DNA from: Beijerinckiaceae bacterium
Lineage (GTDB): Bacteria > Pseudomonadota > Alphaproteobacteria > Rhizobiales > Beijerinckiaceae
Length of the DNA stretch: 59,714 nt
Assembly (NCBI GenBank): GCA_036758905.1
Contig: DAIOVR010000002.1
Location: 1-59,714 of the forward strand
Reading direction: 5' to 3'
Part shown: positions 46,360 through 59,714 of the stretch, in pieces
Layout: every line of letters starts with the position of its first letter
Position numbering within the stretch: position 1 is the stretch's first letter
Translations under genes and position numbers: made by a program
The notes under the pieces: model-generated
Seen by the model: only the letters and a program-made list of their open reading frames with translations
Told to the model about the DNA's origin: nothing
Database searches by the model: none

Positions 46360-46395
46360 AGGTCAATCCTCACGGTTAAGTGAGGCAAAATCTAA

Positions 46396-47245: not shown

Positions 47246-47250
47246 TTCCG

Positions 47251-48747: not shown

Positions 48748-48782
48748 CGCGCAAACTCCTCATTTTTAAGAAATAATTTCCA

Positions 48783-49229
48783 TCAATGAACTTTTGACGG
48801 GGCAATCTCGCGCGCTTTCTTCATAATCATCATAGCATCGGCAACGCGCTCGTTTGGCGCCATTTCCTTAACGGTATGCTCAATCGACCCTTTGTGCTCA
48901 TGCTCGTGCTTTTGAACGAACAATTTGAGATACTCGCCCAGCTTTGCCCAAGCGGTCACACGCGCCCCGTGTGACGAACCTTCACCTGTACGCCGAGCCT
49001 CGGTCAAAAGCCCGTCCAGCACCAAATCTGCCGTGATTTCAGCCGTTTTTATTTGCTTTGACACCAATTGAGCCACAGCCGCCTTCACCTGAGCATTCCC
49101 TAGCAAGCGCGGACCATTAACCTCTGCGCTTTTAGCCGAGTACCCAGCCCGGATAGCCGCTTGTGTCGCGTTTAAATCCTTAACGTATTCAAGAACAAAG
49201 CGTTGTTGCTTGGGGTTCAGGTCGCTCAT
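48783..49229 (-). CDS. terS: Terminase small subunit (Terminase_2/P27 family)
   Basis: LNPKQQRFVLEYVKDLNATQAAIRAGYSAKSAEVNGPRLL. Confidence 0.85.
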   Translation of the reverse strand: MSDLNPKQQRFVLEYVKDLNATQAAIRAGYSAKSAEVNGPRLLGNAQVKAAVAQLVSKQIKTAEITADLVLDGLLTEARRTGEGSSHGARVTAWAKLGEYLKLFVQKHEHEHKGSIEHTVKEMAPNERVADAMMIMKKAREIAPSKVH

Positions 49230-49353
49230 GCGTTTATCTTGCCAAACAATGACTTAGCCAAACACTCGACAAAGATTGCAATGCTGATCCTATTAAAAAA
49301 ATCCAACATGACAGGCGGCATGAAAACTTGGCCTTGGTGTTCAAAAGCGCGAT

Positions 49354-49587
49354 TCATGGCGTTTGGCCTTTCAACAATGATTTGGCCAGTCTCTCCACCA
49401 TTTCCGCCGCAGCCACGCCGTGGAAATACGCTTTGTTCCGACTATAGCCCGGCATAAACCGCGAATTGTAACGCCGGGATTCGTATTCAAATTGAGCGCG
49501 CAGGGCTTTTGAATACATTTCAACAATGTGCGGAGGCAATAAAACGCCCGATTGGTCGGTTATGTCGCCAATTGCAATCATCGCCAC
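49354..49587 (-). CDS. Hypothetical small protein
   Basis: ORF track entry, co-oriented. Confidence 0.4.
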   Translation of the reverse strand: MAMIAIGDITDQSGVLLPPHIVEMYSKALRAQFEYESRRYNSRFMPGYSRNKAYFHGVAAAEMVERLAKSLLKGQTP

Positions 49588-49814
49588 ATTCCAAAAAACT
49601 CGCGGGATACAAACGCATCCATACCGTTTGGCCCCAGAATGTCGCTGCCCGTAACGGGTTCAACAGGCTTTGACGCCAATCCCGCCATTTCCAATATCGC
49701 ATCCACAAATTCTTCCGCCAGTATATCAGACGGAGCAGCGGGTAATTCAACCACTCGTCCGTTATACGAGATGGTCACCGGCCCAATTTGCGGCATGTAT
49801 TCCGGTTTGCTCAT
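49578..49814 (-). CDS. Hypothetical small protein
   Basis: ORF track entry. ATGA overlap with the upstream gene. Confidence 0.45.
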   Translation of the reverse strand: MSKPEYMPQIGPVTISYNGRVVELPAAPSDILAEEFVDAILEMAGLASKPVEPVTGSDILGPNGMDAFVSREFFGMWR

Positions 49815-50128
49815 TGGCCATCCATCAAATTAATGGCGGAAATAATCGTGCCAGTTAAAAAGCACAACCATCCAACGGCATAGAACATCAACGCTATCAT
49901 GGTCCGCCTCGCGCTTTTAATTTCCATCAATGACCGCAATTTCCAAGCCCAAACGCTCTCTTGAAAATTGATTTCAAAAAACAATCCAAGCATGCCCCCA
50001 AAAACAAATGGCACCCAAATCCGCCAGCCAGGCACATAACCGTTGACCACAGCCAGTATCGCGGGCGCAAAAAGCAAAAATTGCGCAAATCCAAATACTT
50101 TTAAAGCCGTTTGCCGTTTCATGGTCAT
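49811..50128 (-). CDS. Membrane protein (3 TM)
   Basis: Hydrophobic segments FAQFLLFAPAILAV, VPFVFGGMLGLFF and LMFYAVGWLCFLTGTII. Confidence 0.5.
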   Translation of the reverse strand: MTMKRQTALKVFGFAQFLLFAPAILAVVNGYVPGWRIWVPFVFGGMLGLFFEINFQESVWAWKLRSLMEIKSARRTMIALMFYAVGWLCFLTGTIISAINLMDGQ

Positions 50129-50136
50129 GTATTTTC

Positions 50137-50146
50137 ACCCGACGCA
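50137..50146 (-). promoter_or_regulatory. Conserved box TGCGTCGGGT, copy 5
   Basis: Plus strand reads ACCCGACGCA. Sits 9 nt upstream of ATG 50128, in the 43-nt gap after the GcrA-like gene. Confidence 0.5.
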
Positions 50147-50171
50147 GCCAGCACCGACAAGCAAAAAACCA

Positions 50172-50732
50172 TTACCCAAACCTCCGCCCGACAAATTCCG
50201 CATGCCGCTTAAATGACCGCTCCCGCTTCTTATCCAAAGGAAAATAAGCAATGGCAGCGTGATCCGCGCAATATGGCTTATTCGATAACTTTGCGTCTTG
50301 GCAGTAACGCCAAACATTATCTTGCGGCCCCGGATTGCCATAGACCCAGCAGCACCCGCACGGTTCTTTAACACCCTCACCGGCCACAACATCACCCCAC
50401 GCCGGATCAATCGGCAGTGATTTAGATACCAAGCGCGGCTTCATTGGTTCAGTGACCAGCCTGGGCATCCGCAGCCCTTTAAACCCCATCACGCGCTTTG
50501 CATGTGCCTTGGCCTTTGGCTTTTGTTCGACCGGCTCCTGATCCGCCCCCTTGGCATTTGACAGCTTAAGCCCCAACCGCCGCAATTGCCCCATAACTGC
50601 ATTGCGCGTGATATGCCATCCAGCCGCCTCCGAAGCAATTAAAGCAATCTGGCTGGACGATGCCCCAGGAGTTTTTTCCCAAGCCTCTCGAATGTATTTG
50701 CGCGAGTCCGAAATCTGAATGGCGTTTCTCAT
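50172..50732 (-). CDS. gcrA: GcrA-like cell-cycle regulator
   Basis: N-terminal SSSQIALIA...ITRNAVMGQLRRLGLK. C-terminal CCWVYGNPG...YCQD...KPYCADHAAIAY (GcrA family pattern). Confidence 0.75.
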   Translation of the reverse strand: MRNAIQISDSRKYIREAWEKTPGASSSQIALIASEAAGWHITRNAVMGQLRRLGLKLSNAKGADQEPVEQKPKAKAHAKRVMGFKGLRMPRLVTEPMKPRLVSKSLPIDPAWGDVVAGEGVKEPCGCCWVYGNPGPQDNVWRYCQDAKLSNKPYCADHAAIAYFPLDKKRERSFKRHAEFVGRRFG

Positions 50733-50902
50733 TTTGTTTCCCCAAAAAATCCCGGTCGCGCCGGTTTTTCACCGCGATAATCCCGCAGAATGTCCAACCA
50801 ATCCAAAACCGTAATCCATGCCGACGCGCCGATGATAAGCACCCCCATCAGCCAAAGCGGGCTTGTGACAAACACCCACCACCAAAATGATAGGGTTTCC
50901 AT
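50729..50902 (-). CDS. 57-aa membrane protein
   Basis: METLSFWWWVFVTSPLWLMGVLIIGASAWITVL. TGATG and ATGA overlaps with its neighbours. Confidence 0.4.
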   Translation of the reverse strand: METLSFWWWVFVTSPLWLMGVLIIGASAWITVLDWLDILRDYRGEKPARPGFFGETK

Positions 50903-51456
50903 CACGCCTCCGCCCTAAACATGGTCGCAACCTTGGCCCTGATGCGCTCGACCGATACCATGCGCTCGTCCCTACTCATTTCAACCGGCGCTGGATCACG
51001 CGGTGCCAAAAGCTTTTGAACCGCGCGCAATTCCGCTTGCTTGTCCTTCATTAGCTTCTCGCACCGGCTCCAAATGACCCCAACAACCGGAATAAACGTA
51101 TCCGCCGACCGTATTTGCTCCCCGATCACTTGACGCAAAATCCGCTCAGGAACAGGCGCCAAAATCTTGACGTACAATTCCCCGTCAAAATTGGTCAGTG
51201 CCTTTGATCGAACCAGCCAAGTCATCATTTCGCCCGCAAAAGCCTTTCCGCAAGGTTGCAACGCATCAAACAAATCCCGGCTGTACCGGCTCAAGATCAA
51301 GTGTTGGTCCGCTGAAATGCCCACCGCTTGCCCCCGGCGCTCCACCATCCCCACCAACGGCGCTAGCGATGCTGGCAAGCGCGGCATCAAGGCTGGATTG
51401 CCGTTTTCCCTTTGATCCGCGCGCTCTAAAGCACCCTTCGATGAATGAGATTGCAT
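50902..51456 (-). CDS. Hypothetical protein (start uncertain)
   Basis: ORF track entry. The 5' end overlaps the DUF1376 gene by up to 190 nt. Internal ATGs lie at 51387 and 51348. Confidence 0.4.
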   Translation of the reverse strand: MQSHSSKGALERADQRENGNPALMPRLPASLAPLVGMVERRGQAVGISADQHLILSRYSRDLFDALQPCGKAFAGEMMTWLVRSKALTNFDGELYVKILAPVPERILRQVIGEQIRSADTFIPVVGVIWSRCEKLMKDKQAELRAVQKLLAPRDPAPVEMSRDERMVSVERIRAKVATMFRAEA

Positions 51457-52096
51457 CTATCGCCCCTTCCCGTTTTGCCGAACCCAAAACCTCAATCAAA
51501 GCCGCATCCCCATGAATGCCTCGCCATCGGCCAAGCACTGACCGGGCTTGAGGCTCTTTGACGCCCTTGGAAATTAAAAATTTTAGACCATCAGTAAAAA
51601 CCAAAGTGGCCAAATCGGGCGGCTTGCCGCCAGTTACGCTAGTAACTGAATCCTCTATATTGGATATAGGATTAGGATAGCTTTCGTGGGGGTTAGCCAC
51701 TTGGTTATCTTTGGGTTTGCTTTGGGTTTCATCTAGCAAACCCACTGGGTTATTTTTGGGTTTAGCTTTAGGCCTGCCACCGCCCGCCCCATTGGTTCGC
51801 GCCCGCTCTTGCCGTAGGATAGCAGCGGCCCATTCTTTCTCTAATCTCTTTTGACGCCACTTGCCGTCAGTCAAATCAAAAAACCTGACCAACACAGGAC
51901 GTAGCTTTGTAAATCGCGCCAATGGCATCCGGCATATCCGCGCCATGGTTTCCGCGTCATCATCTAACGGCTCGCCATTGTTGCGCCATGTCGCATAAAG
52001 AATAAAATGATACGCTCCAAACAACTCAGCATCGCAATGCAGAGTATCGCCCAAAAGCGCATCCACAAACATTGGCATAACCGGCGCCTGGCTCAT
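51266..52096 (-). CDS. DUF1376 (YdaU-like) replication-associated protein
   Basis: FVDALLGDTLHCDAELFGAYHFILYATWRNNG...MARICRM...KRLEKEW. Confidence 0.65.
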   Translation of the reverse strand: MSQAPVMPMFVDALLGDTLHCDAELFGAYHFILYATWRNNGEPLDDDAETMARICRMPLARFTKLRPVLVRFFDLTDGKWRQKRLEKEWAAAILRQERARTNGAGGGRPKAKPKNNPVGLLDETQSKPKDNQVANPHESYPNPISNIEDSVTSVTGGKPPDLATLVFTDGLKFLISKGVKEPQARSVLGRWRGIHGDAALIEVLGSAKREGAIDAISFIEGCFRARGSKGKRQSSLDAALASIASAVGGDGGAPGASGGHFSGPTLDLEPVQPGFV

Positions 52097-52097
52097 A

Positions 52098-52358
52098 TCA
52101 ACCCGCCTTCCGGTTACGCTTGCGCGTGCCGCGCAGGTGCATAATTGACGTGTGATCCCGATTTAATAATCGCCCCATTTGTGCGCACGACAACCCCAGC
52201 GGGGCCATCGCCATTACAGCAGCCCGACGAGCCGCAACCAATTCACGAAACCGAGCCTCGCCTTTAATTTCATCAATGGTAAACCCATGGGATTTAGCCA
52301 CTTCTGCAATGACATACCGGCCACGCTCAAAACTGTTAATGTGCTCAGGAATAATCAT
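52098..52358 (-). CDS. DnaA domain IV-like HTH protein
   Basis: RELVAARRAAVMAMAPLGLSCAQMGRLLNRDHTSIMH resembles Bac_DnaA_C. Confidence 0.55.
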   Translation of the reverse strand: MIIPEHINSFERGRYVIAEVAKSHGFTIDEIKGEARFRELVAARRAAVMAMAPLGLSCAQMGRLLNRDHTSIMHLRGTRKRNRKAG

Positions 52359-53233
52359 GCGGCATCCCCAAATAAATTTGATTGCCGATCAACGGAATCC
52401 AAATACCGGCACGCCTGGCGCCAATAAGCCTCTTTCAGTTCCGTGCCAATAAACTTTCGGCCTAGCTTGAGAGACATATACCCCTCAGATCCAATCCCCA
52501 TAAATGGGCTCAAAACCACATCCCCGGCATTGCTCCACATAATCAAGGCCCGCTCAATCACATCAAGCTGCAATGGACACAAATGGCGCTCATCATTATG
52601 TTCCCGCGCCATGTGGACGTTCAAAACATTGGATTGGTTGACAGTCATCCATACCGGGCTGGCCCATTCCTGCCATTGTTCAACGGGGAAATCTTCCGGC
52701 GTATGAGTGATAGGATCAGCATTCTCGCCCGGTTTCACAAACGTCAAAAGGTAATCGGGCATCCCGCCGCGACTTTTGGCGCTGTCTTTTTTTAGCTGCT
52801 TATAAAGCAAGCCGACATGCTTTGTACGGGTCATTTCCGTGACAGGGCATTTCCAGATCGTGCGCCGTGAATGCAAAATCCATCCTTCCGCCTCATGAGC
52901 ACGAATAATTTGCCCGCTGAAATCCTTGATCCCAACCGCGCCATCTTTCCATTTAGTCATCGGGAGATCGGAGCAATGAACGGCAGTCAGCCGCCCAGGT
53001 TTGGTTACACGGAATTTTTCGCGCACCAAAAATTGATAATGGGCTGCAAATTCTTCATCAGTAGAATTGCCCATATCGGCGGCACTGGTCGAATAAACAA
53101 ACAGCGATCCGAAAGGCGGCGAATAGACCGAAAAATCAATGCTTTCGCTCGGTAACTGGCTTATGACGCTAACGCAGTCTCCGTTGAACGCCGCAAACCG
53201 CTCGCCGTGGTATTCGTTGTCGCAGTCAACCAT
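52355..53233 (-). CDS. Beta-class N6-adenine/N4-cytosine DNA methyltransferase
   Basis: Motif IV SPPF (VYSPPFGS) precedes motif I SPFMGIGSE (beta order). Confidence 0.8.
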   Translation of the reverse strand: MVDCDNEYHGERFAAFNGDCVSVISQLPSESIDFSVYSPPFGSLFVYSTSAADMGNSTDEEFAAHYQFLVREKFRVTKPGRLTAVHCSDLPMTKWKDGAVGIKDFSGQIIRAHEAEGWILHSRRTIWKCPVTEMTRTKHVGLLYKQLKKDSAKSRGGMPDYLLTFVKPGENADPITHTPEDFPVEQWQEWASPVWMTVNQSNVLNVHMAREHNDERHLCPLQLDVIERALIMWSNAGDVVLSPFMGIGSEGYMSLKLGRKFIGTELKEAYWRQACRYLDSVDRQSNLFGDAA

Positions 53234-54600
53234 GATGGTAGTCTCCCTTTGTGTTTAGGTTCGTAAGCAATCTTTGTTTGTTGAGTAGTGGTAGCAGACC
53301 GAAGCATGGCGGCGCGCATGGCGGATTTCATCTTGCTGTGATCCATCGCCTTGCGGTCAATCACGCGTCCGATCTCGGATTCACCCTCTGCAACGATCAA
53401 GTGAACATTGACAGGTTTAGTCTGTCCAAACCGCCAGCAACGGCGGACGGCCTGATACCATGTCTCATAGGAATAGCCGCGACCGACAAACGCCATATCA
53501 GCGCAATGCGACCAATCTAAGCCATATCCAAGCATCGACGGCTTGCCGATCAGCACCTTGATATCGCCCGAAGCAAAAGCCTCTAGTCGGCTTTCCTTTT
53601 CATCAATGGATTGTGCCCCCCGAACCTCAACCGCAAAAGGCAAAGCCTTTTTAACGCTGTCGGCTTCATAATCGGTATCAACCCAAATGATCCACGGTTT
53701 ATCTTGAGTGACGAAGCCGCCCAAAACATCCGTTCTAGCGGCAGCGGTTTGACGTTTCACGTCATGCAGATTGGTCGCTGATAGGGCCAGATGGGCAAAT
53801 AGATCATTGCCATCGGTTTTAATTTCGGTTTGGGCCGCCTGATGCCGGATAATTTCCATCGGCGGCAGATCAAACCGCGAGTCAGTTTCCATGTCCCCCA
53901 GATCAGCCGGACGTTCAGCCATCCGGCACCAAGATGCCATCCAATCCCAAAATGAAATCTCAGCATGACCCTTAAGCCGCCACTCTTGGGAAGCGGTTGA
54001 AGTGTCATTGATAAAGAACCGGGATAGCATTTCATTTGCGGCCATGATTTCAAGAAATTCAGCATAATTGCCAATTTCCATGTGATCATTCGGGGCCGGT
54101 GTCGCGGTCGCTGTCAGCTTAAACCGATGACCCTTGAACGCATCAATCAACGCCCGCGTGGTTTTATTTGTAAATGATTTAAGAATTGACGCCTCATCAA
54201 GTGACACGGCACCAAAAGCATCAGGATCAATCTTATCCAAGCGGTCATAATTGCAAATGTTAATTCCTGGTCCAACATCTGACATTTCGCGGATTACGCG
54301 GGCCTCATAACCATACTTATCCGCCCGGCGCTTGGTTTGTTGCGCGACAGCTAACGGCGTCAGCAATAAACCGCGCCCGTTAGTCGCCTTCATGGCGTGG
54401 TACAAATACTCAAGCTGGATCTCGGTTTTGCCCATGCCAGTGTCTAAAAACAACCCAGCCGCGCCGACGCGCAAATTATGGTCAACGCATTCGCGCTGAA
54501 ACGGAAACAAATGATCCGCTAACAACGCATCGCCCTTTAAGCCGCGCATAACCGCACGAGGCTGCTTGGACGCAAGAAAAGATTGATAATCACCGTTCAT
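53161..54600 (-). CDS. SNF2/DEAD-like helicase
   Basis: LDTGMGKT (motif I), SLDEAS (motif II) and C-terminal helicase motifs ...RCWRFGQTKPVNV. The start is ATG 54600 or 54639. Confidence 0.8.
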   Translation of the reverse strand: MNGDYQSFLASKQPRAVMRGLKGDALLADHLFPFQRECVDHNLRVGAAGLFLDTGMGKTEIQLEYLYHAMKATNGRGLLLTPLAVAQQTKRRADKYGYEARVIREMSDVGPGINICNYDRLDKIDPDAFGAVSLDEASILKSFTNKTTRALIDAFKGHRFKLTATATPAPNDHMEIGNYAEFLEIMAANEMLSRFFINDTSTASQEWRLKGHAEISFWDWMASWCRMAERPADLGDMETDSRFDLPPMEIIRHQAAQTEIKTDGNDLFAHLALSATNLHDVKRQTAAARTDVLGGFVTQDKPWIIWVDTDYEADSVKKALPFAVEVRGAQSIDEKESRLEAFASGDIKVLIGKPSMLGYGLDWSHCADMAFVGRGYSYETWYQAVRRCWRFGQTKPVNVHLIVAEGESEIGRVIDRKAMDHSKMKSAMRAAMLRSATTTQQTKIAYEPKHKGRLPSWLTATTNTTASGLRRSTETALAS

Positions 54601-54796
54601 TTGGTGTCCCAGCATAAAATTTTGTGTCAACCGGCTCACCCTCGCCTATCCATTCCAGGCACTCGCTCCAATATTCATGGTGCGAAAGCCCATTGTTTCG
54701 ACCCGTGCGCGCCCATTTGCCGGTGCCTATGGCCCAATCCACTTGAGACTTGGGAAAGTGGCGAAAATACCGGATTGCGGGCGCCGCACTCATCAT
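54590..54796 (-). CDS. Hypothetical small protein
   Basis: ATGA overlap with the C5-MTase stop. Confidence 0.4.
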   Translation of the reverse strand: MMSAAPAIRYFRHFPKSQVDWAIGTGKWARTGRNNGLSHHEYWSECLEWIGEGEPVDTKFYAGTPNER

Positions 54797-55980
54797 GCCG
54801 CCGCCCTCACATCCATATATGCACCTATGAACTCTGCCGCTGCTTGCGGGACAATCGCGTTACCGAAGCCGCGCAACATACCCACTCGGTTGGGTAGCCC
54901 ATCAACCAAGAGACAAATTCCGGGTTTAACTGGCCTGGCTTTTCCGTCGATCCCGACAATCCGTTCTGCATCGGCCCAATAATTGCCGCTTGAACGTTCA
55001 ACGCTTGGCTGTTGCGTTCGAATTGTGACGGCCCCGCGTTGTTTTTGGCGTCGTTCGTTGTCGGCGTCGACCAATAAACCATAGACGGAAGCGTCATGCT
55101 CCCCGATCCGTATTTCTGGTTCGGTCCGCCCTTGTCGCCGTCTGTCGCTTTGGGCGTCGACCAAAGCGCCGGCACATGATCCTGCAAATTGACCTGGTGC
55201 CCCGATTGTATCCGGGCTGCCGCTTTGTCCGGGTCCGTATAGTCCCCGCCGCCCTTCTCGCGCACTTGCGGCGTCGCCCAAAGCGCCGTCGTCTGGCGCA
55301 ACAACAAGCCCCCTTGTAAATTCGGTTGAAGCTGCGCGCCCGTCCCGTCGTTCGCCCGAGGCGTCGGCCAAAGTGCTTGGATCGTATTCTGTAGCGTCAC
55401 TGTTGCTTTTGAGCCGTCCGGCCGGACCCCTGTCGGCGTCGTACCGGGAGGATTGCTTTGCCCGCCGCTCGGAGTTGTGGGCGTGGGCCACAAAGAACAA
55501 TCGGTCGCGGCGGTGCGGCGCGCCGACGGCACAAGCCGGAATAATCGCCGCCCCAACGGCGTAATCAAGTCCTTCAAGATCATTGGCGACATTGTCGAGC
55601 CATGATTGACCAACCGCTGCCGCAACCTGTTCGCCAAACAGGTTTGAAGGTCGACACTCGCCGACGAGCCGAAACAATTCCGGCCAGAGGTGACGCTTGT
55701 CGTCGACCCCTTGCCGCTTTCCCGCGACACTGAAGGGCTGGCATGGTGGCGAGCCGGTCCAGACGGGACGGTCGACCGGCCATCCGGCAAGTCTAAGAGC
55801 CTCGGCCCATCCCCCGATTCCGGCGAAGAAATGGACTTGGTCGAATCCGACAAGGTCGGCGCCGGTGACGTCGCAAATAGATCGAATGTCGACGAATCCA
55901 TCTGGAATCAATCCTTGTTTGATTAGCTCGCGCAACCAAGCAGCGGCAAACGGATCGTTTTCGTTGTAATAAGCCGTCAT
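54793..55980 (-). CDS. DNA (cytosine-5) methyltransferase (frame A)
   Basis: Motifs FFAGIGG (I), SPPCQPFS (IV), GEQV (VI), PHRRDRLFFVA (VIII) and GFGNAIVPQ (X). The middle ~180 codons are low-complexity. Confidence 0.8.
   Translation of the reverse strand: MTAYYNENDPFAAAWLRELIKQGLIPDGFVDIRSICDVTGADLVGFDQVHFFAGIGGWAEALRLAGWPVDRPVWTGSPPCQPFSVAGKRQGVDDKRHLWPELFRLVGECRPSNLFGEQVAAAVGQSWLDNVANDLEGLDYAVGAAIIPACAVGAPHRRDRLFFVAHAHNSERRAKQSSRYDADRGPAGRLKSNSDATEYDPSTLADASGERRDGRAASTEFTRGLVVAPDDGALGDAASAREGRRGLYGPGQSGSPDTIGAPGQFAGSCAGALVDAQSDRRRQGRTEPEIRIGEHDASVYGLLVDADNERRQKQRGAVTIRTQQPSVERSSGNYWADAERIVGIDGKARPVKPGICLLVDGLPNRVGMLRGFGNAIVPQAAAEFIGAYMDVRAAA
54825..55901 (-). CDS. Overlapping +1-frame ORF (frame B) with five WxTP repeats and a motif-IX-like LMGYPTEW
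   Basis: A 358-codon open frame nested in the MTase gene. Repeats are LWPTPT, LWPTPRANDG, LWATPQ, LWSTPKATDG and YWSTPTTNDA. The C-terminus reads LNPEFVSWLMGYPTEW. Confidence 0.5.
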   Translation of the reverse strand: MDSSTFDLFATSPAPTLSDSTKSISSPESGDGPRLLDLPDGRSTVPSGPARHHASPSVSRESGKGSTTSVTSGRNCFGSSASVDLQTCLANRLRQRLVNHGSTMSPMILKDLITPLGRRLFRLVPSARRTAATDCSLWPTPTTPSGGQSNPPGTTPTGVRPDGSKATVTLQNTIQALWPTPRANDGTGAQLQPNLQGGLLLRQTTALWATPQVREKGGGDYTDPDKAAARIQSGHQVNLQDHVPALWSTPKATDGDKGGPNQKYGSGSMTLPSMVYWSTPTTNDAKNNAGPSQFERNSQALNVQAAIIGPMQNGLSGSTEKPGQLNPEFVSWLMGYPTEWVCCAASVTRLSRKQRQSS

Positions 55981-56408
55981 GCCGCCACCGCATCCAATTC
56001 AAATGCTTCGATGGTTACTTTGACCTTGGGCTTATCCGCCCAATGCCGCCGCACGGTCAGCCAAATGATTTGCTTGTCATCTTGGTACACAACGCCGTTA
56101 AGAGCATCGCAAACCGCCTTGGCGACATTATCCAGATCGACCCGATGAATCGGTGCAAACGTCCCTTTTAAAGCCGCATTGCGTTGACGTGCTGGCCAAG
56201 ATTTAGGAGGCACGACAAACACATTGATGGTCGCCGCTATGGCATTGCCAACCGGATCATCTTTGAACACGGCGCGCGCCGCCCATTGAACGGCTTGCTC
56301 ATATTCAACCGTCTTGGCGGGAGTATAAACATGACCCTGTTTGGTCATGCGCGGACGCTGTTTGCCGACCGGCTCCCCGCCAATTTCAAATGTCGCCAAG
56401 TGACGCAT
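55977..56408 (-). CDS. rusA: RusA Holliday-junction resolvase
   Basis: GKQRPR...DLDNVAKAVCDALNGVVYQDDKQI. Confidence 0.9.
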   Translation of the reverse strand: MRHLATFEIGGEPVGKQRPRMTKQGHVYTPAKTVEYEQAVQWAARAVFKDDPVGNAIAATINVFVVPPKSWPARQRNAALKGTFAPIHRVDLDNVAKAVCDALNGVVYQDDKQIIWLTVRRHWADKPKVKVTIEAFELDAVAA

Positions 56409-56686
56409 CAGGCCGCAACACGCTTTAATGCGGCTTCACCCAACGGAGTGGTGGCAAGCATGCCCAAAGCGTTCAAATACAATTCCAGCTTTGCTTCTTC
56501 TTCATCGCGCTGCGCTTTGTCTTTTTTGCGAAGCGCAATGACCTTGCGGATGATTTTGGTTTCAAACCCGTGAGCAGCCGCCTCCGCGTACACATCCTTA
56601 ATGTCCCCAGCCAGCTCTGCCTTCTCGGTTTCAAGGCGCTCAATCCGCTCCACTATTGACTGCAATTGTCCGTTTGAAATTGTCAT
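56408..56686 (-). CDS. gapR: GapR-like (DUF2312) nucleoid-associated protein
   Basis: LQSIVERIERLETEKAELAGDIKDVYAEAAAHGFETKIIRKVIALRKKD...LELYLNALGM. ATG 56686. Confidence 0.8.
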   Translation of the reverse strand: MTISNGQLQSIVERIERLETEKAELAGDIKDVYAEAAAHGFETKIIRKVIALRKKDKAQRDEEEAKLELYLNALGMLATTPLGEAALKRVAA

Positions 56687-56786
56687 TCTCAATCTCCAAA
56701 AAGGCCAGGGCCAAAGCCCCGGCAAGTTGAGGGAGGTACGCCCGTGTGGGCCTGTTGAGCAGGTAAAAACCCGCAATTCTTAAAAC

Positions 56787-57236
56787 TCAATCGCCAGTTA
56801 AATCGGAAAATACAGGTCCATCACTTTGTGACCCGTTCGAATGCACCAATGGCCGATCCGATTCAGCGCGGATGCCGTCAAAATCAGCCCGCGCTTGTAA
56901 AATGCGATCCGCCAATTGCGCATGTTCTTTCTGTAAATCATCCAATTCCCCTCGGATTCGTAGCATTGCCGTGTCGCCACAAGCTGGTTCAAACACAAAC
57001 GCCACAAACCGATACCCAAATAAGCCGCTTAACCGCGAAATATGCTTTCCGCTTGGGTACTTGCCCTCAAGCCATTCCCGAACGGTGCGCTCATCACTAT
57101 CAACCGCTCTCGCCACCTCTTTCACGGTATTGCGCGGATAGGCTTGGCGCAGCCAGAACGCCACGCGCGATCCCATTTCAGGAACGGCATCAACGCACGG
57201 CATTTTTTTGGTAACTTTCACTGTGTATTTGCTCAT
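56787..57236 (-). CDS. HTH regulatory protein (CII-position)
   Basis: ATG 57236. NTVKEVARAVDSDERTVREWLEG. Second gene of the Cro-side operon. Confidence 0.45.
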   Translation of the reverse strand: MSKYTVKVTKKMPCVDAVPEMGSRVAFWLRQAYPRNTVKEVARAVDSDERTVREWLEGKYPSGKHISRLSGLFGYRFVAFVFEPACGDTAMLRIRGELDDLQKEHAQLADRILQARADFDGIRAESDRPLVHSNGSQSDGPVFSDLTGD

Positions 57237-57451
57237 CGTTCCCTCGCATTTTAATGATGCAAGGACGGGAGCCAGATTGATGATTGAACGGGAATTGGAG
57301 CGTGACGACCTTGGCCGGAATGACACGCTCGACAATTGGGTAAAACTTGATATGGCGACAGGACTGGCCTTGATCGTCATTGGCTGCAAACTTATTAACC
57401 GGTCGGATCATCCCCAACCGATTGGCGAACAAGTTGCGGCCAATGACTGAT

Positions 57452-57700
57452 CTAGCCAGCATTACGCACCTCATCATTTTGAGATTGCGGCAATGGCACC
57501 AAAAAAATGTCTGGCCTTAATTCGCACCGGGAAATACCGGTTGCCCTTTCAATGGCCAACGCATTTTCGGCTGAAATCTTGGTTGAACGATTAACCCATG
57601 CCCAAATGGACGGCTGTTTGACCCCAATGGCGCGGGCCAAGGCGTTTTGTCCACCGGCAATCTCTAATGCGCGTTGCAGCGCGGTTATAGGCGTGTTCAT
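57452..57700 (-). CDS. cro: Cro-like / YdaS-type HTH repressor
   Basis: GGQNALARAIGVKQPSIWAWVN...ALAIERATG. Divergent from the CI-like gene. Confidence 0.7.
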   Translation of the reverse strand: MNTPITALQRALEIAGGQNALARAIGVKQPSIWAWVNRSTKISAENALAIERATGISRCELRPDIFLVPLPQSQNDEVRNAG

Positions 57701-57701
57701 A

Positions 57702-57751
57702 GGTTTGTCTATATAGGCAAACCAAAGCCGCGTCAATAGTGGATGCTATTG
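57702..57751. promoter_or_regulatory. Immunity-region candidate operators
   Basis: Palindromes GGTTTGTC-TATATA-GGCAAACC (57702-57723) and CAATAG-N6-CTATTG (57734-57751) lie between the divergent cro-like and cI-like starts. Confidence 0.4.
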
Positions 57752-57783
57752 GAAAAATGAGTTTTTTTAATTAATGTGCGGAC

Positions 57784-58446
57784 ATGGAAACTTTAGGTAA
57801 ACGAGTGCGCGCCCGTCGCGCTGATTTAAAATTGTCTCAAGCGGAACTTGCCAGCCGCGTGGGCATATCTCAGCCGTCTTTATCAGCCATTGAAAATGAC
57901 GAGACTCAAGGCACCACCAAAATATTAAAGCTGGCAGAAGTATTGGAATGTGACCCCAATTGGCTTTTGATGGGCAATAAACTAAAGTTTAGCGTCCCCA
58001 ACAAACTTACAACTTATAAAAATAATCCTGTTGCAAACGAATCAGTTTTTACTACCATCAATATGGGCAAAAGAGACTTACCTATTAGAGGTCTGGCTCA
58101 AGGGGGTGATGGGGTGCTAACATTTGACCAAGACGCAATAGATTATACTTTTCGTCCATCTAATTTAGTCGGCATAGATGAAGCGTTTGCGCTTTATGTT
58201 ACCGGCGACTCCATGGGCGAAGTCTTGATCCCAGGCACTTTGTTATTGGTTCACCCCAAACAAGAACCAAAAATTATGGATTTTGTCGTTATTGAAAAAA
58301 TTGACCGATCCGTAATCGTTAAACGATTGGTTCGCAGATCGGCCAATAGCGTCACCTTGCGCGAATACGACCCGCCCAATGATTTTGTGCTTTCTCGCAG
58401 CGAAATTCGAATGATGTTGCGGGTTTGCGGGACGGCCATGGAATGA
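57784..58446 (+). CDS. cI: CI-like repressor (XRE HTH + S24 LexA-type peptidase)
   Basis: LSQAELASRVGISQPSLSAIEN; YVTGDSMGE...VIVKRL (Ser/Lys dyad). Confidence 0.9.
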   Translation: METLGKRVRARRADLKLSQAELASRVGISQPSLSAIENDETQGTTKILKLAEVLECDPNWLLMGNKLKFSVPNKLTTYKNNPVANESVFTTINMGKRDLPIRGLAQGGDGVLTFDQDAIDYTFRPSNLVGIDEAFALYVTGDSMGEVLIPGTLLLVHPKQEPKIMDFVVIEKIDRSVIVKRLVRRSANSVTLREYDPPNDFVLSRSEIRMMLRVCGTAME

Positions 58447-58769
58447 AACGGCTTGCCGCACTCTTTATACTAGGAGCATGCGCCAGCCCTCAGCTGGCCA
58501 CACCCCAACAAAAAAACGAGGCAATCAAAACCTGGTTTGATTGCATGACTATAAAAGCCGTGCAATTCGACGACCACCAATCCGATGCCGGATCAATCGC
58601 TTTGGGCATTATGGGGCTTTGCCACACGGATTTTATGGAAAGCGTGCGTTTACAATTAACCGGCACATCCCCAGCCCTTCAAACCAATCTTAAGGCCAAG
58701 CTTTTAAACGATGAACTGCCAATGGCAACCAGCGTCGTTTTAACGGTGCGATCCCCTCAAAAACGCTAA
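58443..58769 (+). CDS. Lipoprotein co-transcribed with the repressor
   Basis: MKRLAALFILGAC lipobox. ATGA overlap with the cI stop. Confidence 0.6.
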   Translation: MKRLAALFILGACASPQLATPQQKNEAIKTWFDCMTIKAVQFDDHQSDAGSIALGIMGLCHTDFMESVRLQLTGTSPALQTNLKAKLLNDELPMATSVVLTVRSPQKR

Positions 58770-58848
58770 TTTGACGCCGGGCAAATTTTTGCAAATTTTC
58801 TCCATGCCCAAAATTATCGGTATTTCTATATTGCAATAAATTTGCCTA

Positions 58849-58877
58849 TTGACCGTAAATATAGTTTGTCCTATAAA
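58849..58877 (+). promoter_or_regulatory. Near-consensus sigma70-type promoter of the plus-strand early operon
   Basis: TTGACC (58849-58854), 17 nt, TATAAA (58872-58877). Confidence 0.45.
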
Positions 58878-58886
58878 TATTTCCGT

Positions 58887-58954
58887 CACCGGATGCACCC
58901 CCGGTGAAGCAGCGGCCCCGGTACAAACCCTCCTGCATCGAGCCGGGGCCGCTG
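58887..58954 (+). promoter_or_regulatory. Structured leader: two GC-rich hairpins
   Basis: CACCGG/CCGGTG (58887-58906) and a perfect 12-bp stem CAGCGGCCCCGG/CCGGGGCCGCTG (58910-58921 / 58943-58954) with a 21-nt loop. No U-tract follows. Confidence 0.4.
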
Positions 58955-58976
58955 ACCACCACAAGGGAGATTTGAT

Positions 58977-59174
58977 ATGGCCCGCCTAACGTCAGAAATT
59001 GAGGTTAAATCTTGGGAAGTGTTCCAAACTAACTCCACCATTATGCTTACTGGTTACGACAACGCGGGCAGCGATGTTGTTACCGTCTACGCCACTGACA
59101 AAGAATTGGTTGCCTTGCGCGATGTGTTAATCGCTCGCTATCCGGTAATCACCGAAATTCGGGTTGCCGCATAA
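58977..59174 (+). CDS. Hypothetical early protein
   Basis: ORF track entry. GGGAG SD. Confidence 0.5.
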   Translation: MARLTSEIEVKSWEVFQTNSTIMLTGYDNAGSDVVTVYATDKELVALRDVLIARYPVITEIRVAA

Positions 59175-59500
59175 TGCGCTACGAAACCCTATTCACGCTT
59201 AAAAGCGATGACATTGAAATCGAATACGAAATCAATGTTGATTACGAGCATAATGAAGCATACGGCGGCGGTTGGTCAGAACCCCGCGTGCCGGAGCATT
59301 GCGACATTATCAGAGTTACCGGCAGAGCATATCTGCAAGGCGGCAGAAACCCGATCATGGGCCAACCGTTTGATTTTATGCCCCTACTGTCAGCAAGCGC
59401 ACTTCAAAGCCTAGCGGACGCTTGTTTAAACGATCACAACGGCATGATTGCGGACGCCATGGAAATGCGCGCTCTGGAACGCCGTGATGCAGCGGAGTAA
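59174..59500 (+). CDS. Hypothetical early protein
   Basis: ORF track entry. TAATG overlap with the previous gene. Confidence 0.5.
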   Translation: MRYETLFTLKSDDIEIEYEINVDYEHNEAYGGGWSEPRVPEHCDIIRVTGRAYLQGGRNPIMGQPFDFMPLLSASALQSLADACLNDHNGMIADAMEMRALERRDAAE

Positions 59501-59505
59501 TTACT

Positions 59506-59714
59506 ATGCTATTCACAATCCCTTTCCGTTCATGGACTGGCAAAGCCGCATTTGAGGTCGAGATCGCCGACGATGTTGAACCGCGCTTTCAAATGCGCGC
59601 TGCCTTGTCGGTTGTGATCGGCAAAGCCAAAGAAAAGGGCGAACGTGCCAATCTCAGCCGTGCCGATCTCAGCGGTGCCGATCTCAGCGGTGCCTATCTC
59701 AGCGGTGCCGATCT
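59506..59714 (+). CDS. Pentapeptide-repeat protein, N-terminal part (runs off the window end, continues at 2..298)
   Basis: ATG 59506. ...ERANLSRADLSGADLSGAYLSGAD, with no stop before the window end. Confidence 0.7.
   Translation, partial: MLFTIPFRSWTGKAAFEVEIADDVEPRFQMRAALSVVIGKAKEKGERANLSRADLSGADLSGAYLSGAD
59679..59714 (+). repeat. Terminal 36-nt identity with positions 1-36 (circular closure)
   Basis: CGATCTCAGCGGTGCCTATCTCAGCGGTGCCGATCT occurs at both window ends, in the same reading phase. Confidence 0.8.

What the first reader, a model, noticed from the sequence alone, without database searches (positions are those of the whole stretch)
54793..55980. Two ~1.1-kb same-strand overlapping open frames through the C5-methyltransferase gene (dual coding or double recoding)
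Frame A (minus strand, 54793-55980, 395 aa) has C5-MTase motifs I (FFAGIGG), IV (SPPCQPFS), VI (GEQV) and VIII (PHRRDRLFFVA) at its N-terminus. Motif X (GFGNAIVPQ) sits at its extreme C-terminus. The ~180 codons in between are Arg/Gly/Asp/Ala-rich, with no recognisable target-recognition domain or motif IX.

Frame B (+1 relative to A; 54825-55901, 358 aa) is open across nearly the whole gene, and its middle looks far more protein-like. It has five spaced repeats: LWPTPT, LWPTPRANDG, LWATPQ, LWSTPKATDG and YWSTPTTNDA. The DNA copies lie at 55479-55490, 55360-55373, 55270-55283, 55153-55166 and 55063-55076, spaced 90-119 nt apart. The repeats are preceded by GSTMSPMILKDLITPLGRRLFRLVPSARRTAATD. 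They are followed by LNPEFVSWLMGYPTEW, which resembles the C5-MTase motif IX (..LMGFP..W). So frame B carries exactly the parts that frame A lacks.

The periodic LADA/LGDA/LVDA in frame A are just the other-frame reading of the WxTP codons. PLxDG.. in frame A likewise corresponds to WLMG in frame B. The third frame and the opposite strand in this interval are broken into ORFs of 90 codons or fewer in the supplied track, so two long open frames are not expected by chance.

Three options remain. (i) Two proteins are encoded by the same DNA. (ii) The active enzyme is made by two recoding events, A to B near 55490 and B to A near 54870. (iii) There are two compensating indel errors, though that would not explain why each frame stays open beyond its own conserved segments.

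I recall both sequence types from prophage annotations. One is the MTase with an ADA-punctuated low-complexity middle. The other is a hypothetical protein with WPTP repeats. I cannot verify that recollection here.
Basis: partly seen in the sequence, partly recalled or inferred. Interest (0 to 1): 0.85.

Follow-up and report, generated by a model that had tools for sequence, protein, structure and literature searches.

The report
Methyltransferase with second subunit nested inside
This phage cytosine-methyltransferase gene really does encode two proteins in two reading frames of the same DNA: a catalytic subunit, and nested inside it a DNA-reading subunit. One E. coli enzyme (M.EcoHK31I) was shown to work this way in 1995, but the layout turns out to be standard for a very large, mostly mis-annotated phage family.

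Summary
On the minus strand, frame A (54793-55980, 395 aa) and frame B (+1; 54825-55901, 358 aa) are both open and share 1,077 nt.

This is neither chance nor error. In about 150 distant relatives, chosen only by the frame-A catalytic N-terminus, frame B is open too. Stops in that frame are avoided from about codon 40 onward (7 observed against 328 expected over codons 42-165). The +2 frame and flanking genes show no such avoidance.

Substitution patterns show which frame is under selection along the gene:
- Frame A over motifs I-VIII.
- Both frames at the first junction.
- Frame B in the middle (WxTP repeats).
- Both frames again at the second junction.
- Frame A at motif X.

AlphaFold models the frame-A middle (residues 187-330) as disordered.

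Best explanation: a two-subunit C5-methyltransferase. Alpha (frame A) carries motifs I-VIII, a filler linker and motif X. Beta (frame B) has its own ATG and carries a docking element, the repeats (probable target-recognition part) and motif IX. This is the published architecture of M.EcoHK31I. Actinophage relatives show the simpler AquI-like split and a single-chain form.

Double recoding and indel errors are not supported. The kind is known. The size of the family and the near-total overlap seem little appreciated. Expression of beta and the heterodimer itself are inferred, not shown.

The parts
54793..55980 (-). Alpha ORF (frame A, 395 aa): catalytic subunit of the C5-methyltransferase, with motifs I-VIII, a long linker and motif X.
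   Evidence: ORF. PF00145 at residues 75-177. PHROG 363 over residues 1-392. The AlphaFold model has pLDDT ~90 for residues 1-170 and 92-95 for the C-terminal helix. Foldseek matches M.HhaI, M.HaeIII and DNMT1 over about 170-195 columns. The ATG overlaps the stop of the upstream RusA gene (ATGA).
55486..55830 (-). Alpha catalytic motifs: I (FFAGIGG, 55810-55830), IV (SPPCQPFS, 55729-55752), VI (GEQV, 55624-55635), VIII (PHRRDRLFFVA, 55486-55518).
   Evidence: Coordinates. These columns are invariant or nearly so in 71 homologues. Substitutions peak at alpha codon position 3 here: 0.073/0.069/0.286 for codons 42-95.
54991..55422 (-). Alpha linker (residues 187-330). It is rich in Ala/Gly/Arg/Ser/Asp, predicted disordered, and is the out-of-frame reading of the beta repeats. 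It is kept open but is not selected at the amino-acid level.
   Evidence: pLDDT 30-40. Composition. In the middle region substitutions are 0.249/0.135/0.096 at alpha positions 1/2/3, which is the coding pattern of frame B. Amino-acid identity is 0.70 in A against 0.86 in B. About 3 alpha stops are expected under beta-synonymous shuffling and none is seen.
54814..54984 (-). Alpha C-terminal module: conserved W..W..DGKxRPVxPG hairpin, LVDGLPxRV, then motif X (GNAIVPQAAAEFIGAYM, 54814-54864).
   Evidence: Invariant columns W335, D345, R349, L358, G361, R365, L369, R370, G373, N374, A375, I376. Strands at 339-342 and 348-351, helix at 378-394. The last 27 codons show a pure frame-A signature: 0.090/0.092/0.272.
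54825..55901 (-). Beta ORF (frame B, +1 relative to alpha, 358 aa), lying entirely inside alpha. Proposed DNA-recognition subunit.
   Evidence: ORF. PHROG 1008 E 1e-35. At least 6,782 homologous protein clusters, none with a Pfam domain. The +1 frame is open in about 147 of 151 relatives. Frame-B purifying selection acts in the middle.
55899..55916 (-). Proposed beta start: ATG at 55899-55901, AAGGA (Shine-Dalgarno-like) at 55912-55916, and the last upstream frame-B stop TGA at 55908-55910.
   Evidence: Read. In 148 relatives the last upstream frame-B stop lies at alpha residues 19-38 in most. The first ATG lies at alpha residue 27, 29, 31, 37 or 41 in 126 loci. An ATG at residue 37 occurs in 91 loci, 67 of them with an SD-like motif. 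Stop avoidance begins only after this point.
55662..55901 (-). Beta leader (residues 1-80). It is rich in Ser/Thr/Pro/Gly, predicted disordered, and is the out-of-frame reading of alpha motifs I-IV. It is kept open but is otherwise unconstrained.
   Evidence: pLDDT about 50. Composition. Amino-acid identity is 0.68 in B against 0.91 in A for alpha codons 42-95, yet 7 stops are observed against 95 expected over alpha codons 42-95.
55512..55664 (-). Beta helix plus beta-hairpin (residues 80-130; family consensus L.SSL.SRLR.RL...GST...LTWK...TP.GR.L.RL..S.RRT). Proposed docking element for alpha. It is encoded over alpha motifs VI-VIII.
   Evidence: This is the best-predicted part of beta: helix 81-100, strands 107-113 and 119-125, pLDDT 74-90. 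G101, S102, W109, P115 and G117 are invariant or nearly so. The region shows mixed constraint, 0.125/0.078/0.177. The docking role is an inference from M.EcoHK31I, where the N-terminal ~42 residues of beta govern association (PMC2836561).
55047..55493 (-). Beta WxTP repeat region, with five units: 55476-55493, 55344-55373, 55266-55283, 55137-55166 and 55047-55076. Probable target-recognition part.
   Evidence: The number of units varies from 0 to 5 among relatives. The region is similar to the xPTP repeats of the beta-like ORFs of Arthrobacter phages (tblastn E 4e-10 to 5e-4; sequences). A short stretch (41 residues, E 8e-4) also matches the single-chain Gordonia enzyme, whose xPTP repeats are visible. 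Frame-B coding signature.
54882..54935 (-). Beta motif IX (GQLNPEFVSWLMGYPTEW). It is encoded on the same bases as alpha ...KARPVKPGICLLVDGLPNRV, so this stretch is truly dual-constrained.
   Evidence: L325, P327, W332, L333, P337 and W340 are invariant or nearly so. Helices 327-333 and 338-347, pLDDT about 80. hhalign gives 92% probability against ...RLSARFTEWMMGQPVGW of the phage Jamun beta-like ORF. By eye it fits M.HhaI LHPRECARVMGYPDSY (sequence shown). Mixed substitution pattern 0.189/0.104/0.137.

Best explanation
The locus encodes a two-subunit (alpha/beta) DNA cytosine-5 methyltransferase whose beta gene lies entirely inside the alpha gene in the +1 frame.

Alpha (frame A) is translated from 55980 through to 54793. 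It supplies the whole large catalytic domain, that is motifs I-VIII plus the motif X helix. These are joined by a disordered linker of about 145 residues. The linker sequence is only the out-of-frame reading of beta, and it has to stay free of stops so that the ribosome reaches motif X.

Beta (frame B) is translated independently from its own ATG at 55901, about 80 nt into alpha. It has four parts:
1. An unconstrained, disordered leader of about 80 residues, which is the out-of-frame reading of alpha motifs I-IV.
2. A conserved helix plus hairpin that probably docks onto alpha.
3. The WxTP repeats, which take the place of the target-recognition domain.
4. Motif IX.

The two chains are proposed to assemble into one enzyme with one active site, as shown experimentally for M.EcoHK31I. 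In the phage it probably acts as an orphan methylase that protects phage DNA from host restriction.

Shown here: both frames are open and conserved, each is under its own selection, beta has a recurrent start, and the order of the parts is as described. Inferred: that beta is expressed, that a heterodimer forms, that beta reads the DNA target, and the biological role.
For: (1) Family-wide conservation. In 164 loci fetched with the alpha N-terminus only, the +1 frame is stop-free over about 85-95% of alpha. This holds from 45% to 70% GC and across many phyla. The +2 frame is broken in all of them.

(2) Specific avoidance of stops. Observed against expected +1-frame stops under synonymous shuffling of alpha:
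- codons 1-26: 314 / 242
- codons 42-70: 7 / 81
- codons 70-95: 0 / 14
- codons 95-125: 0 / 136
- codons 125-165: 0 / 96
Controls show no avoidance: +2 frame 601 / 585, and 196 flanking ORFs 2121 / 2121. For alpha in the middle region, about 3 stops per locus are expected under beta-synonymous shuffling and none is seen. Motif X is still in frame A at the end in about 90% of loci.

(3) The selected frame switches along the gene. In 22 independent close pairs, mismatch rates at alpha codon positions 1/2/3 are:
- .104/.104/.288 for codons 1-26
- .073/.069/.286 for codons 42-95
- .125/.078/.177 for codons 96-165
- .249/.135/.096 for the middle
- .189/.104/.137 for the region around motif IX
- .090/.092/.272 for the last 27 codons, which include motif X
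Amino-acid identity in A against B is .91/.68 over codons 42-95 and .70/.86 in the middle.

(4) Beta has its own start. An ATG lies at alpha residues 27-41 in 126 of 148 loci, often with an SD-like motif. The last upstream frame-B stop lies just before it.

(5) Structure predictions. Alpha residues 1-170 and 378-394 are confident and residues 187-330 are disordered. Beta residues 1-80 are disordered, while the helix-hairpin, the first repeat and motif IX are confident.

(6) Relatives with simpler layouts. In Arthrobacter phages the catalytic ORF stops after motif VIII, and a +1 ORF carries the repeats, IX and X. Gordonia phage Gudmit has everything in one chain. hhalign links the motif IX regions.

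(7) Experimental precedent. In M.EcoHK31I beta is encoded entirely within another frame of alpha, alpha has motifs I-VIII and X, beta has motif IX, and both are required for methylation (PMC2836561, PMC3404938).
Against: There is no direct evidence here that beta is translated or that alpha and beta bind each other.

The beta repeat region itself is modelled with low confidence (pLDDT 45-64). Neither Foldseek nor a profile search of PDB sequences links beta to any solved methyltransferase small domain. Calling the repeats a target-recognition domain therefore rests on their position, on selection, and on homology to the variable region of split and single-chain relatives.

The literature places the predicted TRD of M.EcoHK31I in alpha, not beta (PMC2836561).

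It is not explained why beta should start about 80 codons before its first constrained element. Frequent internal ATGs at alpha residues 93/94 could mark a second start.

Two related viral contigs (L026, L042) carry one or two stops in the alpha linker yet keep motif X in frame A.

Sequence homology to M.EcoHK31I could not be tested.

The combined shuffle statistics are not corrected for phylogeny.
Confidence: 0.8

Rival explanations
1. Double programmed frameshifting. The ribosome starts in frame A, shifts +1 into B after motif VIII, and shifts -1 back into A after motif IX. This would give one conventional single-chain methyltransferase.
For: The order of the meaningful segments is A, then B, then A. 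That matches the order of parts in the single-chain relative Gudmit gp58.
Against: This model gives no reason for frame B to stay open for about 100 codons upstream of the junction, or for frame A to stay open through about 145 unconstrained codons. Both are strongly maintained.

Frame B has its own recurrent ATG. No X XXY YYZ heptamer occurs between motif IX and the beta stop in any of 131 loci. There is no frame-A stop or conserved slippery site at the first junction: the window reads TTC TTT GTG there and SEN5 reads TTC TGG GTG.

A B-to-A junction after ...PTEW would leave only about 6 residues before GNA. The single-chain relatives have about 17. The experimentally studied precedent makes two separate chains (PMC2836561).
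Confidence: 0.05
2. Beta is a real, separately translated protein, but its function is unrelated to methylation. It would be, for example, an overprinted regulator or anti-defence protein that merely shares DNA with the methyltransferase.
For: Beta has no Pfam or NCBIfam model and no structural match. Its leader and repeats are modelled poorly.
Against: Beta ends in a motif IX-like element, which is exactly what alpha lacks. That element aligns with the motif IX region of the split actinophage methyltransferases, where it is followed in the same chain by motif X. The beta repeats match the variable region of those enzymes. Beta co-occurs with alpha in essentially every family member. In M.EcoHK31I beta is required for methylation (PMC2836561).
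Confidence: 0.08
3. Frame B is not translated. Its openness and apparent conservation are by-products of the amino-acid and codon composition of frame A.
For: Some conserved frame-B residues (GST, TP, RRT) sit over conserved alpha residues (WLD, YA, PH). GC-rich genes often have long alternative ORFs (reverse frames).
Against: Synonymous shuffles that keep the alpha protein and its codon usage predict about 328 stops over codons 42-165 in 150 loci, and 7 are seen. The +2 frame and flanking genes behave as expected. In the middle region the substitution pattern is that of a gene read in frame B, not A. The effect also holds at 45-52% GC.
Confidence: 0.02
4. Sequencing or assembly indels, or a decaying pseudogene of a single-frame methyltransferase.
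For: A few relatives do show isolated frame fusions or stops that look like indels or decay: L057, L141 and L037.
Against: The same two-frame layout is found in about 150 independent loci from isolates, metagenome-assembled genomes and phage genomes. These include N15, K1ind2, SEN5, Seifer and Cy-LDV1. The exact alpha protein of this window occurs on 8 contigs in public data.
Confidence: 0.01

Closest known systems
M.EcoHK31I (E. coli, YGGCCR; Lee, Kam & Shaw 1995, as described in PMC2836561 and PMC3404938)
   Same: It is a natural heterodimeric C5-methyltransferase. Beta is encoded entirely inside alpha in another reading frame. [quoted passage not shown] The N-terminal part of beta governs association. 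Alternative internal start codons of beta can be used.
   Different: - The reported beta is 176 aa inside a 309-aa alpha (sizes from my own recollection of the 1995 paper, which is not held here). In the window beta is 358 aa and covers 91% of a 395-aa alpha.
- The literature assigns the predicted TRD to alpha. Here the alpha middle is unconstrained and predicted disordered, and the selected variable region is in beta.
- M.EcoHK31I belongs to a restriction-modification system. The window gene sits in a phage replication and recombination module with no endonuclease seen nearby.
- Sequence homology between the two could not be tested.
M.AquI (CYCGRG) and the split methyltransferases of Arthrobacter phages (Jamun gp39 plus a +1 ORF; PrincessTrina gp81/gp82)
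   Same: These are two-polypeptide C5-methyltransferases. The second ORF is in the +1 frame and overlaps the end of the first. The actinophage beta-like ORFs share xPTP repeats and the ...F.EWMMG.P.GW motif IX with the window's beta.
   Different: There the first ORF stops soon after motif VIII and the second carries the variable region, IX and X. The overlap is short, about 38 to 230 nt. In the window alpha continues through the whole of beta to reach motif X, so the overlap is nearly total and motif X is in the other frame. The M.AquI description is taken from PMC3404938. Its sequence was not compared here.
Single-chain C5-methyltransferases (Gordonia phage Gudmit gp58; M.HhaI and M.HaeIII as structural references)
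   Same: The catalytic fold and motifs are the same. Gudmit gp58 has xPTP repeats...FAEWMMMLPAGW and GNGV in one chain.
   Different: One polypeptide and one frame. In the window the small-domain parts have moved to a second polypeptide.
Fully embedded same-strand phage genes, such as lambda Rz1 inside Rz and phiX174 B inside A (from general knowledge)
   Same: A gene lies wholly inside another gene in the +1 frame of the same strand, and the two products act together.
   Different: Those embedded genes are short, from tens of codons to about 120. Here the embedded ORF is 358 codons, and the two products are parts of one ancestral enzyme, not a new protein overprinted on an old one.

Membership tests
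DNA cytosine-5 methyltransferase (Pfam PF00145 / TIGR00675 dcm superfamily) | AdoMet-binding motif I (FxGxG) and catalytic motif IV (PCQ) | tested here: met
   FFAGIGG and SPPCQPFS are present in frame A. PF00145 scores E 8.7e-22, 78 bits, above the 22-bit cut-off. Foldseek matches M.HhaI with probability 1.00.
DNA cytosine-5 methyltransferase (Pfam PF00145 / TIGR00675 dcm superfamily) | All ten motifs plus a target-recognition domain in a single polypeptide | tested here: not met
   PF00145 covers only residues 75-177 of alpha, which is profile positions 66-169 of 324. TIGR00675 scores 52 bits, below its 100.65-bit cut-off. Alpha residues 187-330 are disordered and unconstrained. Motif IX lies in the other frame.
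M.EcoHK31I-type nested alpha/beta C5-methyltransferase | Alpha ORF with motifs I-VIII and X but without a proper motif IX | tested here: met
   Alpha has only a degenerate shadow of motif IX (...RPVKPGICLLVDGLP), which HMMER aligns to M.HhaI motif IX without significance.
M.EcoHK31I-type nested alpha/beta C5-methyltransferase | Beta ORF encoded entirely within alpha in an alternative reading frame of the same strand | tested here: met
   Beta at 54825-55901 lies inside alpha at 54793-55980, in the +1 frame. This is conserved in about 147 of 151 relatives.
M.EcoHK31I-type nested alpha/beta C5-methyltransferase | Beta carries motif IX | tested here: inconclusive
   LNPEFVSWLMGYPTEW fits the pattern of M.HhaI LHPRECARVMGYPDSY by eye. 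It aligns with the motif IX region of split phage methyltransferases at 92% hhalign probability. However, a profile of beta finds no solved methyltransferase in the PDB sequences.
M.EcoHK31I-type nested alpha/beta C5-methyltransferase | Both polypeptides are made and both are required for methylation | not testable with these tools
   Only indirect support is available: each frame is under its own purifying selection, and beta has a recurrent ATG.
M.EcoHK31I-type nested alpha/beta C5-methyltransferase | Sequence homology to M.EcoHK31I alpha and beta | not testable with these tools
   The 1995 paper (PMC306636) is not held, and no sequence or supplement was available. No hit named EcoHK31I appeared among the listed best 120 of three protein searches.
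M.AquI-type split C5-methyltransferase | First subunit ends within or before the variable region, and the second subunit carries motifs IX and X | tested here: not met
   Alpha does not stop after motif VIII, and motif X is in alpha, not beta. The AquI-like layout is seen in the Arthrobacter phage relatives instead.
Programmed ribosomal frameshift gene | A conserved slippery site at the frame junction, with the non-used frame closing soon after it | tested here: not met
   No -1 heptamer in 0 of 131 loci. Both frames stay open far beyond the junctions.

The most novel reading that the evidence does not exclude
The nested layout may be the normal design of a very large, phylum-spanning phage and prophage methyltransferase family, not a rare oddity represented only by M.EcoHK31I. 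Thousands of alpha and at least 6,782 beta protein clusters were found.

In this family the embedded +1 gene covers about 90% of its host gene (260-360 codons). That would make it one of the longest and most widespread same-strand nested gene pairs in prokaryotic viruses.

The DNA-reading part would sit in beta as a variable number (0-5) of WxTP modules. The 'variable region' of alpha would be pure filler. Exchanging or changing the number of repeat modules in beta could retarget specificity without touching the catalytic subunit.

Standard annotation misses beta almost everywhere: it has no Pfam or NCBIfam model, and RefSeq E. coli genomes list alpha only.
Probability: 0.5. Interest if true: 0.7.

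Novelty: new member of a known kind. Interest (0 to 1): 0.6.

Why it matters
Heterodimeric C5-methyltransferases are described in the literature as a small number of exceptions, namely M.AquI and M.EcoHK31I (bioRxiv 10.1101/2020.03.09.983320; PMC3404938). Long same-strand gene overlaps in prokaryotes are generally regarded as nearly non-existent (abstract of bioRxiv 10.1101/724807).

This locus and its relatives show a clean, statistically overwhelming case of long-range dual coding. Each frame in turn is the selected one, while the other is kept only free of stops.

Practical consequences:
- Genome annotation lists only one of the two subunits, and sometimes a fragment, as in cyanophage Cy-LDV1.
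- Cloned 'methyltransferase' ORFs with frame B accidentally altered, for example by codon optimisation, would probably be inactive.
- Predicting specificity from the alpha 'variable region' would be meaningless.
- The family gives a large natural data set for studying how two proteins share one DNA sequence.
- It may also provide naturally split methyltransferases for targeted-methylation engineering, the use already made of M.EcoHK31I (PMC2836561).

Tried and rejected
- Foldseek of the beta model against the PDB gave nothing below E = 0.7. The model is too uncertain to be useful.
- A profile of beta against PDB sequences gave no methyltransferase hit.
- Pfam and NCBIfam scans of beta and of two beta relatives found no family.
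- The window does not match any GenBank phage at the DNA level (megablast of 40000-59714), so the source phage remains unidentified. The exact alpha protein occurs on 8 public contigs, the longest 60,180 bases, without a name.
- Attempts to test homology to M.EcoHK31I failed. The original paper and the supplements are not held. A tblastn of an enterobacterial beta against plasmids found 27 records, several of them 27-70 kb, all annotated only 'DNA cytosine methyltransferase' where annotated. Their flanks were not inspected, so the search did not identify an EcoHK31I-like restriction-modification plasmid. The third protein search, with enterobacterial beta sequences, listed no EcoHK31I-named protein.
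- The name 'Mte8-like', given to a beta ORF by one source, led to no informative paper.
- Literature searches for a description of this phage family as nested or dual-coding found none. The library lacks most subscription journals, so this is weak evidence of absence.
- PDB entry 3g7u (prophage CP-933R methyltransferase) matches only alpha residues 69-165 at E 6e-7. I judged it too distant to serve as a solved member of this family.
- Considered and rejected, for the reasons under rival explanations: double recoding, indel artefact, and a compositional by-product.


Full report
**1. The observation**

The minus strand carries two long overlapping ORFs. Frame A is 54793-55980 (395 aa). Frame B is 54825-55901 (358 aa). 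B starts 79 nt after A, so it is the +1 frame. The shared stretch is 1,077 nt, 91% of A.

Frame A has C5-methyltransferase motifs I, IV, VI and VIII in its first 165 residues and GNAIVPQ near its end. Pfam PF00145 matches only residues 75-177. PHROG 363 ('DNA methyltransferase') matches residues 1-392.

Frame B has five WxTP units and ends ...GQLNPEFVSWLMGYPTEW... It matches PHROG 1008 ('DNA methyltransferase') at residues 172-352 and no Pfam family.

For this gene alone, synonymous shuffling of frame A gives 3.9 +1-frame stops on average, with P(none) = 0.002.

**2. It is a family trait, not an accident**

The first four annotated relatives I looked at all have the same two frames. These are cyanophage Cy-LDV1, Salmonella phage SEN5, Klebsiella phage Seifer and, later, N15 gp58.
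- In Cy-LDV1 the annotators called only a 3' piece of frame B.
- In E. coli phage K1ind2 both frames were annotated as 'DNA methyltransferase'.

To avoid bias I then fetched 160 loci using only the catalytic N-terminus of frame A: 80 from viral contigs and 80 from bacterial and archaeal genomes. They come from Proteobacteria, Acidobacteriota, Chloroflexota, Verrucomicrobiota, Planctomycetota, cyanobacteria and others.

In practically every one the +1 frame is stop-free over 85-95% of the methyltransferase ORF. This holds from 45% to 70% GC. The +2 frame never exceeds about 150 codons.

Gene callers have independently called frame-B proteins thousands of times. There are 310 hits with the window's B and at least 6,782 with a profile of three enterobacterial B sequences. 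None carries a Pfam domain.

**3. Stop avoidance is specific**

I shuffled synonymous codons of frame A in 150 non-identical loci. Observed against expected stops in the +1 frame were:

| Frame-A codons | Observed | Expected |
|---|---|---|
| 1-26 | 314 | 242 |
| 42-70 | 7 | 81 |
| 70-95 | 0 | 14 |
| 95-125 | 0 | 136 |
| 125-165 | 0 | 96 |

Controls showed no avoidance: the +2 frame gave 601 against 585, and the +1 frame of 196 flanking ORFs gave 2121 against 2121. So frame B is protected from about codon 40 onward and not before.

Conversely, shuffling synonymous codons of frame B predicts about 3 frame-A stops per locus in the middle region, with a mean probability of none of 0.12. Yet frame A runs on to an in-frame motif X in about 90% of loci by my first, narrow pattern. 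Most of the apparent exceptions turned out to be C-terminal extensions or a GDAIV variant. These pooled figures are not corrected for phylogeny, but most loci are so diverged that synonymous sites are near saturation.

**4. Which frame is selected where**

In 22 independent pairs of relatives (66-99% DNA identity) I counted mismatches by frame-A codon position. Frame-A position 1 is frame-B position 3, and frame-A position 3 is frame-B position 2.

| Region | Pos 1 | Pos 2 | Pos 3 | Reading |
|---|---|---|---|---|
| Codons 1-26 | .104 | .104 | .288 | A only |
| Codons 42-95 (motifs I-IV) | .073 | .069 | .286 | A only; aa identity A .91, B .68 |
| Codons 96-165 | .125 | .078 | .177 | both |
| Middle | .249 | .135 | .096 | B; aa identity B .86, A .70 |
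| Around motif IX | .189 | .104 | .137 | both |
| Last 27 codons (incl. motif X) | .090 | .092 | .272 | A only |

Nevertheless each frame is kept open where it is not the meaningful one.

**5. Frame B has its own start**

In 148 loci the last upstream frame-B stop lies at frame-A residues 19-38 in most. The first ATG after it lies at residue 27, 29, 31, 37 or 41 in 126 loci. An ATG at residue 37 is present in 91 loci, 67 of them with an SD-like motif.

In the window, TGA (55908-55910) is followed by ATG (55899-55901), with AAGGA ten bases upstream of the ATG.

**6. Structure predictions**

Frame A (71-sequence alignment): residues 1-170 have pLDDT around 90, residues 187-330 are below 50 (mostly 30-40), there is a short hairpin at 339-351, and the helix at 378-394 scores 92-95. 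Foldseek matches M.HhaI, M.HaeIII and DNMT1 over about 170-195 columns.

Frame B (83 sequences): residues 1-80 have pLDDT around 50. A helix (81-100) plus hairpin (107-125) scores 74-90, the first repeat region (residues 141-170) 75-86, the remaining repeats 45-64, and the motif IX helices about 80. Foldseek and PDB sequence searches with B found nothing.

**7. Relatives that explain the layout**

- In Arthrobacter phage Jamun the catalytic ORF (motifs I-VIII) stops at 199 aa. A +1 ORF overlapping it by about 77 codons carries xPTP repeats...RFTEWMMGQPVGW (motif IX) and ...LKACGNGVV (motif X).
- PrincessTrina gp81/gp82 has the same layout with a 38-nt overlap.
- Gordonia phage Gudmit gp58 has the catalytic domain, repeats, IX and X in one chain.
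- A Lacticaseibacillus phage has the nested type.

The window's frame B matches the Arthrobacter-phage repeat regions by tblastn (E 4e-10 to 5e-4), and a short stretch of it matches Gudmit gp58 (E 8e-4). Its motif IX region matches that of Jamun by hhalign at 92% probability.

The frame-A segment LVDGLPNRVGMLRGFGNAIVPQ resembles the stretch that follows motif IX in the one-chain enzyme (VTDIPGLSRAEQLKAIGNGV). Together the two window proteins therefore contain every canonical segment. This last comparison is my reading, not a statistical test.

**8. The precedent**

M.EcoHK31I is described as a natural heterodimer. [quoted passage not shown] Both are needed for methylation in vivo and in vitro. 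Progressive N-terminal deletions of beta weaken association, and internal Met codons of beta can serve as starts (PMC2836561; also PMC3404938).

M.AquI is the other known two-chain enzyme, split inside the variable region (PMC3404938).

The window gene has the M.EcoHK31I architecture. I could not test sequence homology to it, because the 1995 paper and the sequence are not held.

**9. How it most likely works**

Alpha is translated through its whole length. It forms the large domain, with motif X brought back by a long, disordered linker that acts as filler.

Beta starts at its own ATG. It carries a filler leader, then a helix-hairpin that probably docks on alpha, then the WxTP repeats acting as the target-reading part, then motif IX.

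The pair forms one enzyme. Its place between RusA and GapR-like genes and a helicase, with no endonuclease seen nearby, suggests an orphan phage methylase that protects phage DNA.

Dual coding and selection are shown. Expression, assembly, target reading by beta and the biological role are inferred. I put 0.8 on this model.

**10. Rivals**

- Double recoding (0.05). It is contradicted by the openness of both frames beyond the junctions, by the beta start, by the absence of slippery heptamers in 0 of 131 loci, and by the short spacing a B-to-A junction would give.
- A beta protein unrelated to methylation (0.08). This is unlikely given motif IX and the split relatives.
- A compositional by-product (0.02) and indel errors (0.01) are excluded and by the comparative data.

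**11. Novelty**

The kind is known, so I file the locus as a new member of a known kind. What appears under-appreciated:
- The size and breadth of the family.
- The near-total overlap: 358 codons here, against 176 in M.EcoHK31I by my recollection.
- The evidence that the selected variable region is in beta while the middle of alpha is filler.
- The fact that RefSeq E. coli genomes list only alpha, and that no Pfam or NCBIfam model exists for beta.

I found no paper describing this in the held library, which is weak evidence of absence.

Noticed in passing
window 55977-56776 (-) and 53161-54796 (-): The methyltransferase sits in a tightly packed minus-strand operon.
- Upstream lie a GapR-like DNA-binding protein (56408-56776, PF10073) and a RusA resolvase (55977-56408, PF05866). 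The RusA stop overlaps the alpha ATG (ATGA).
- Downstream a 68-aa ORF (54590-54796) starts in ATGATGA, overlapping the alpha stop.
- After that comes a 492-aa helicase-like protein (53161-54639, weak DEAD/Helicase_C matches).

Phage K1ind2 has the same order, with the methyltransferase followed by a helicase. The GapR-like gene hints at an alphaproteobacterial host. That hint comes from my general knowledge and was not tested.
   Followed up: partly
L026 (frame-A stops at codons 178 and 234) and L042 (stop at codon 230), viral contigs: Two related viral contigs carry one or two in-frame stops inside the alpha linker. They still keep an intact frame B and an intact motif X segment further on in frame A. 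They could be recent pseudogenes. They could also be natural three-piece versions (alpha-N, beta, alpha-C), which would say the linker only has to connect, or not even that.
   Followed up: partly
L168 852-2237 (Gordonia phage Gudmit gp58): After motif VIII this single-chain enzyme has a low-complexity stretch with a repeated TPADTSGD(G/R)R.. unit. That looks like xPTP repeats read out of frame. In-frame LPPTP/LLPTP repeats follow, then IX and X. It may be a frame-fused descendant of a split gene, a possible intermediate in the evolution of these layouts.
   Followed up: no
L003 (cyanophage Cy-LDV1, BK059895.1) 1489-2721: The deposited annotation misses the 410-aa alpha ORF altogether. It calls only the last 185 codons of beta as 'methyltransferase', and places a 'hypothetical protein' on the opposite strand over the catalytic domain. 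This shows how the nested layout confuses gene callers.
   Followed up: yes
window 54882-54935 (-), and the same region in relatives: Around motif IX both frames give a similar pattern: alpha V-K-P-G-I-C-L-L-V-D-G-L-P and beta L-N-P-E-F-V-S-W-L-M-G-Y-P. The cause is that the Pro and Gly codons are CCC-G and GGG-C, which read as Pro and Gly in both frames. HMMER even aligns the alpha version to M.HhaI motif IX, without significance. This frame-robust coding may be a trace of how the overlap arose.
   Followed up: partly
family-wide, frame-A residues 93/94 and 119: Besides the upstream ATG, many loci have a frame-B ATG at alpha residues 93/94 (69 of 148), or a start codon with an SD-like motif at residue 119 (74 of 148). 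Both lie just before the beta helix-hairpin. A shorter beta isoform starting there would be closer in size to the 176-aa beta I recall for M.EcoHK31I.
   Followed up: no
L088, L163, L032/L097 (bacterial genomes): Some alpha proteins carry C-terminal extensions after motif X containing Cys-x-x-Cys pairs (for example ...TPCTACGFPATDNQLCDTCEELY). These look like a small zinc-ribbon-type addition. They are absent from the window.
   Followed up: no
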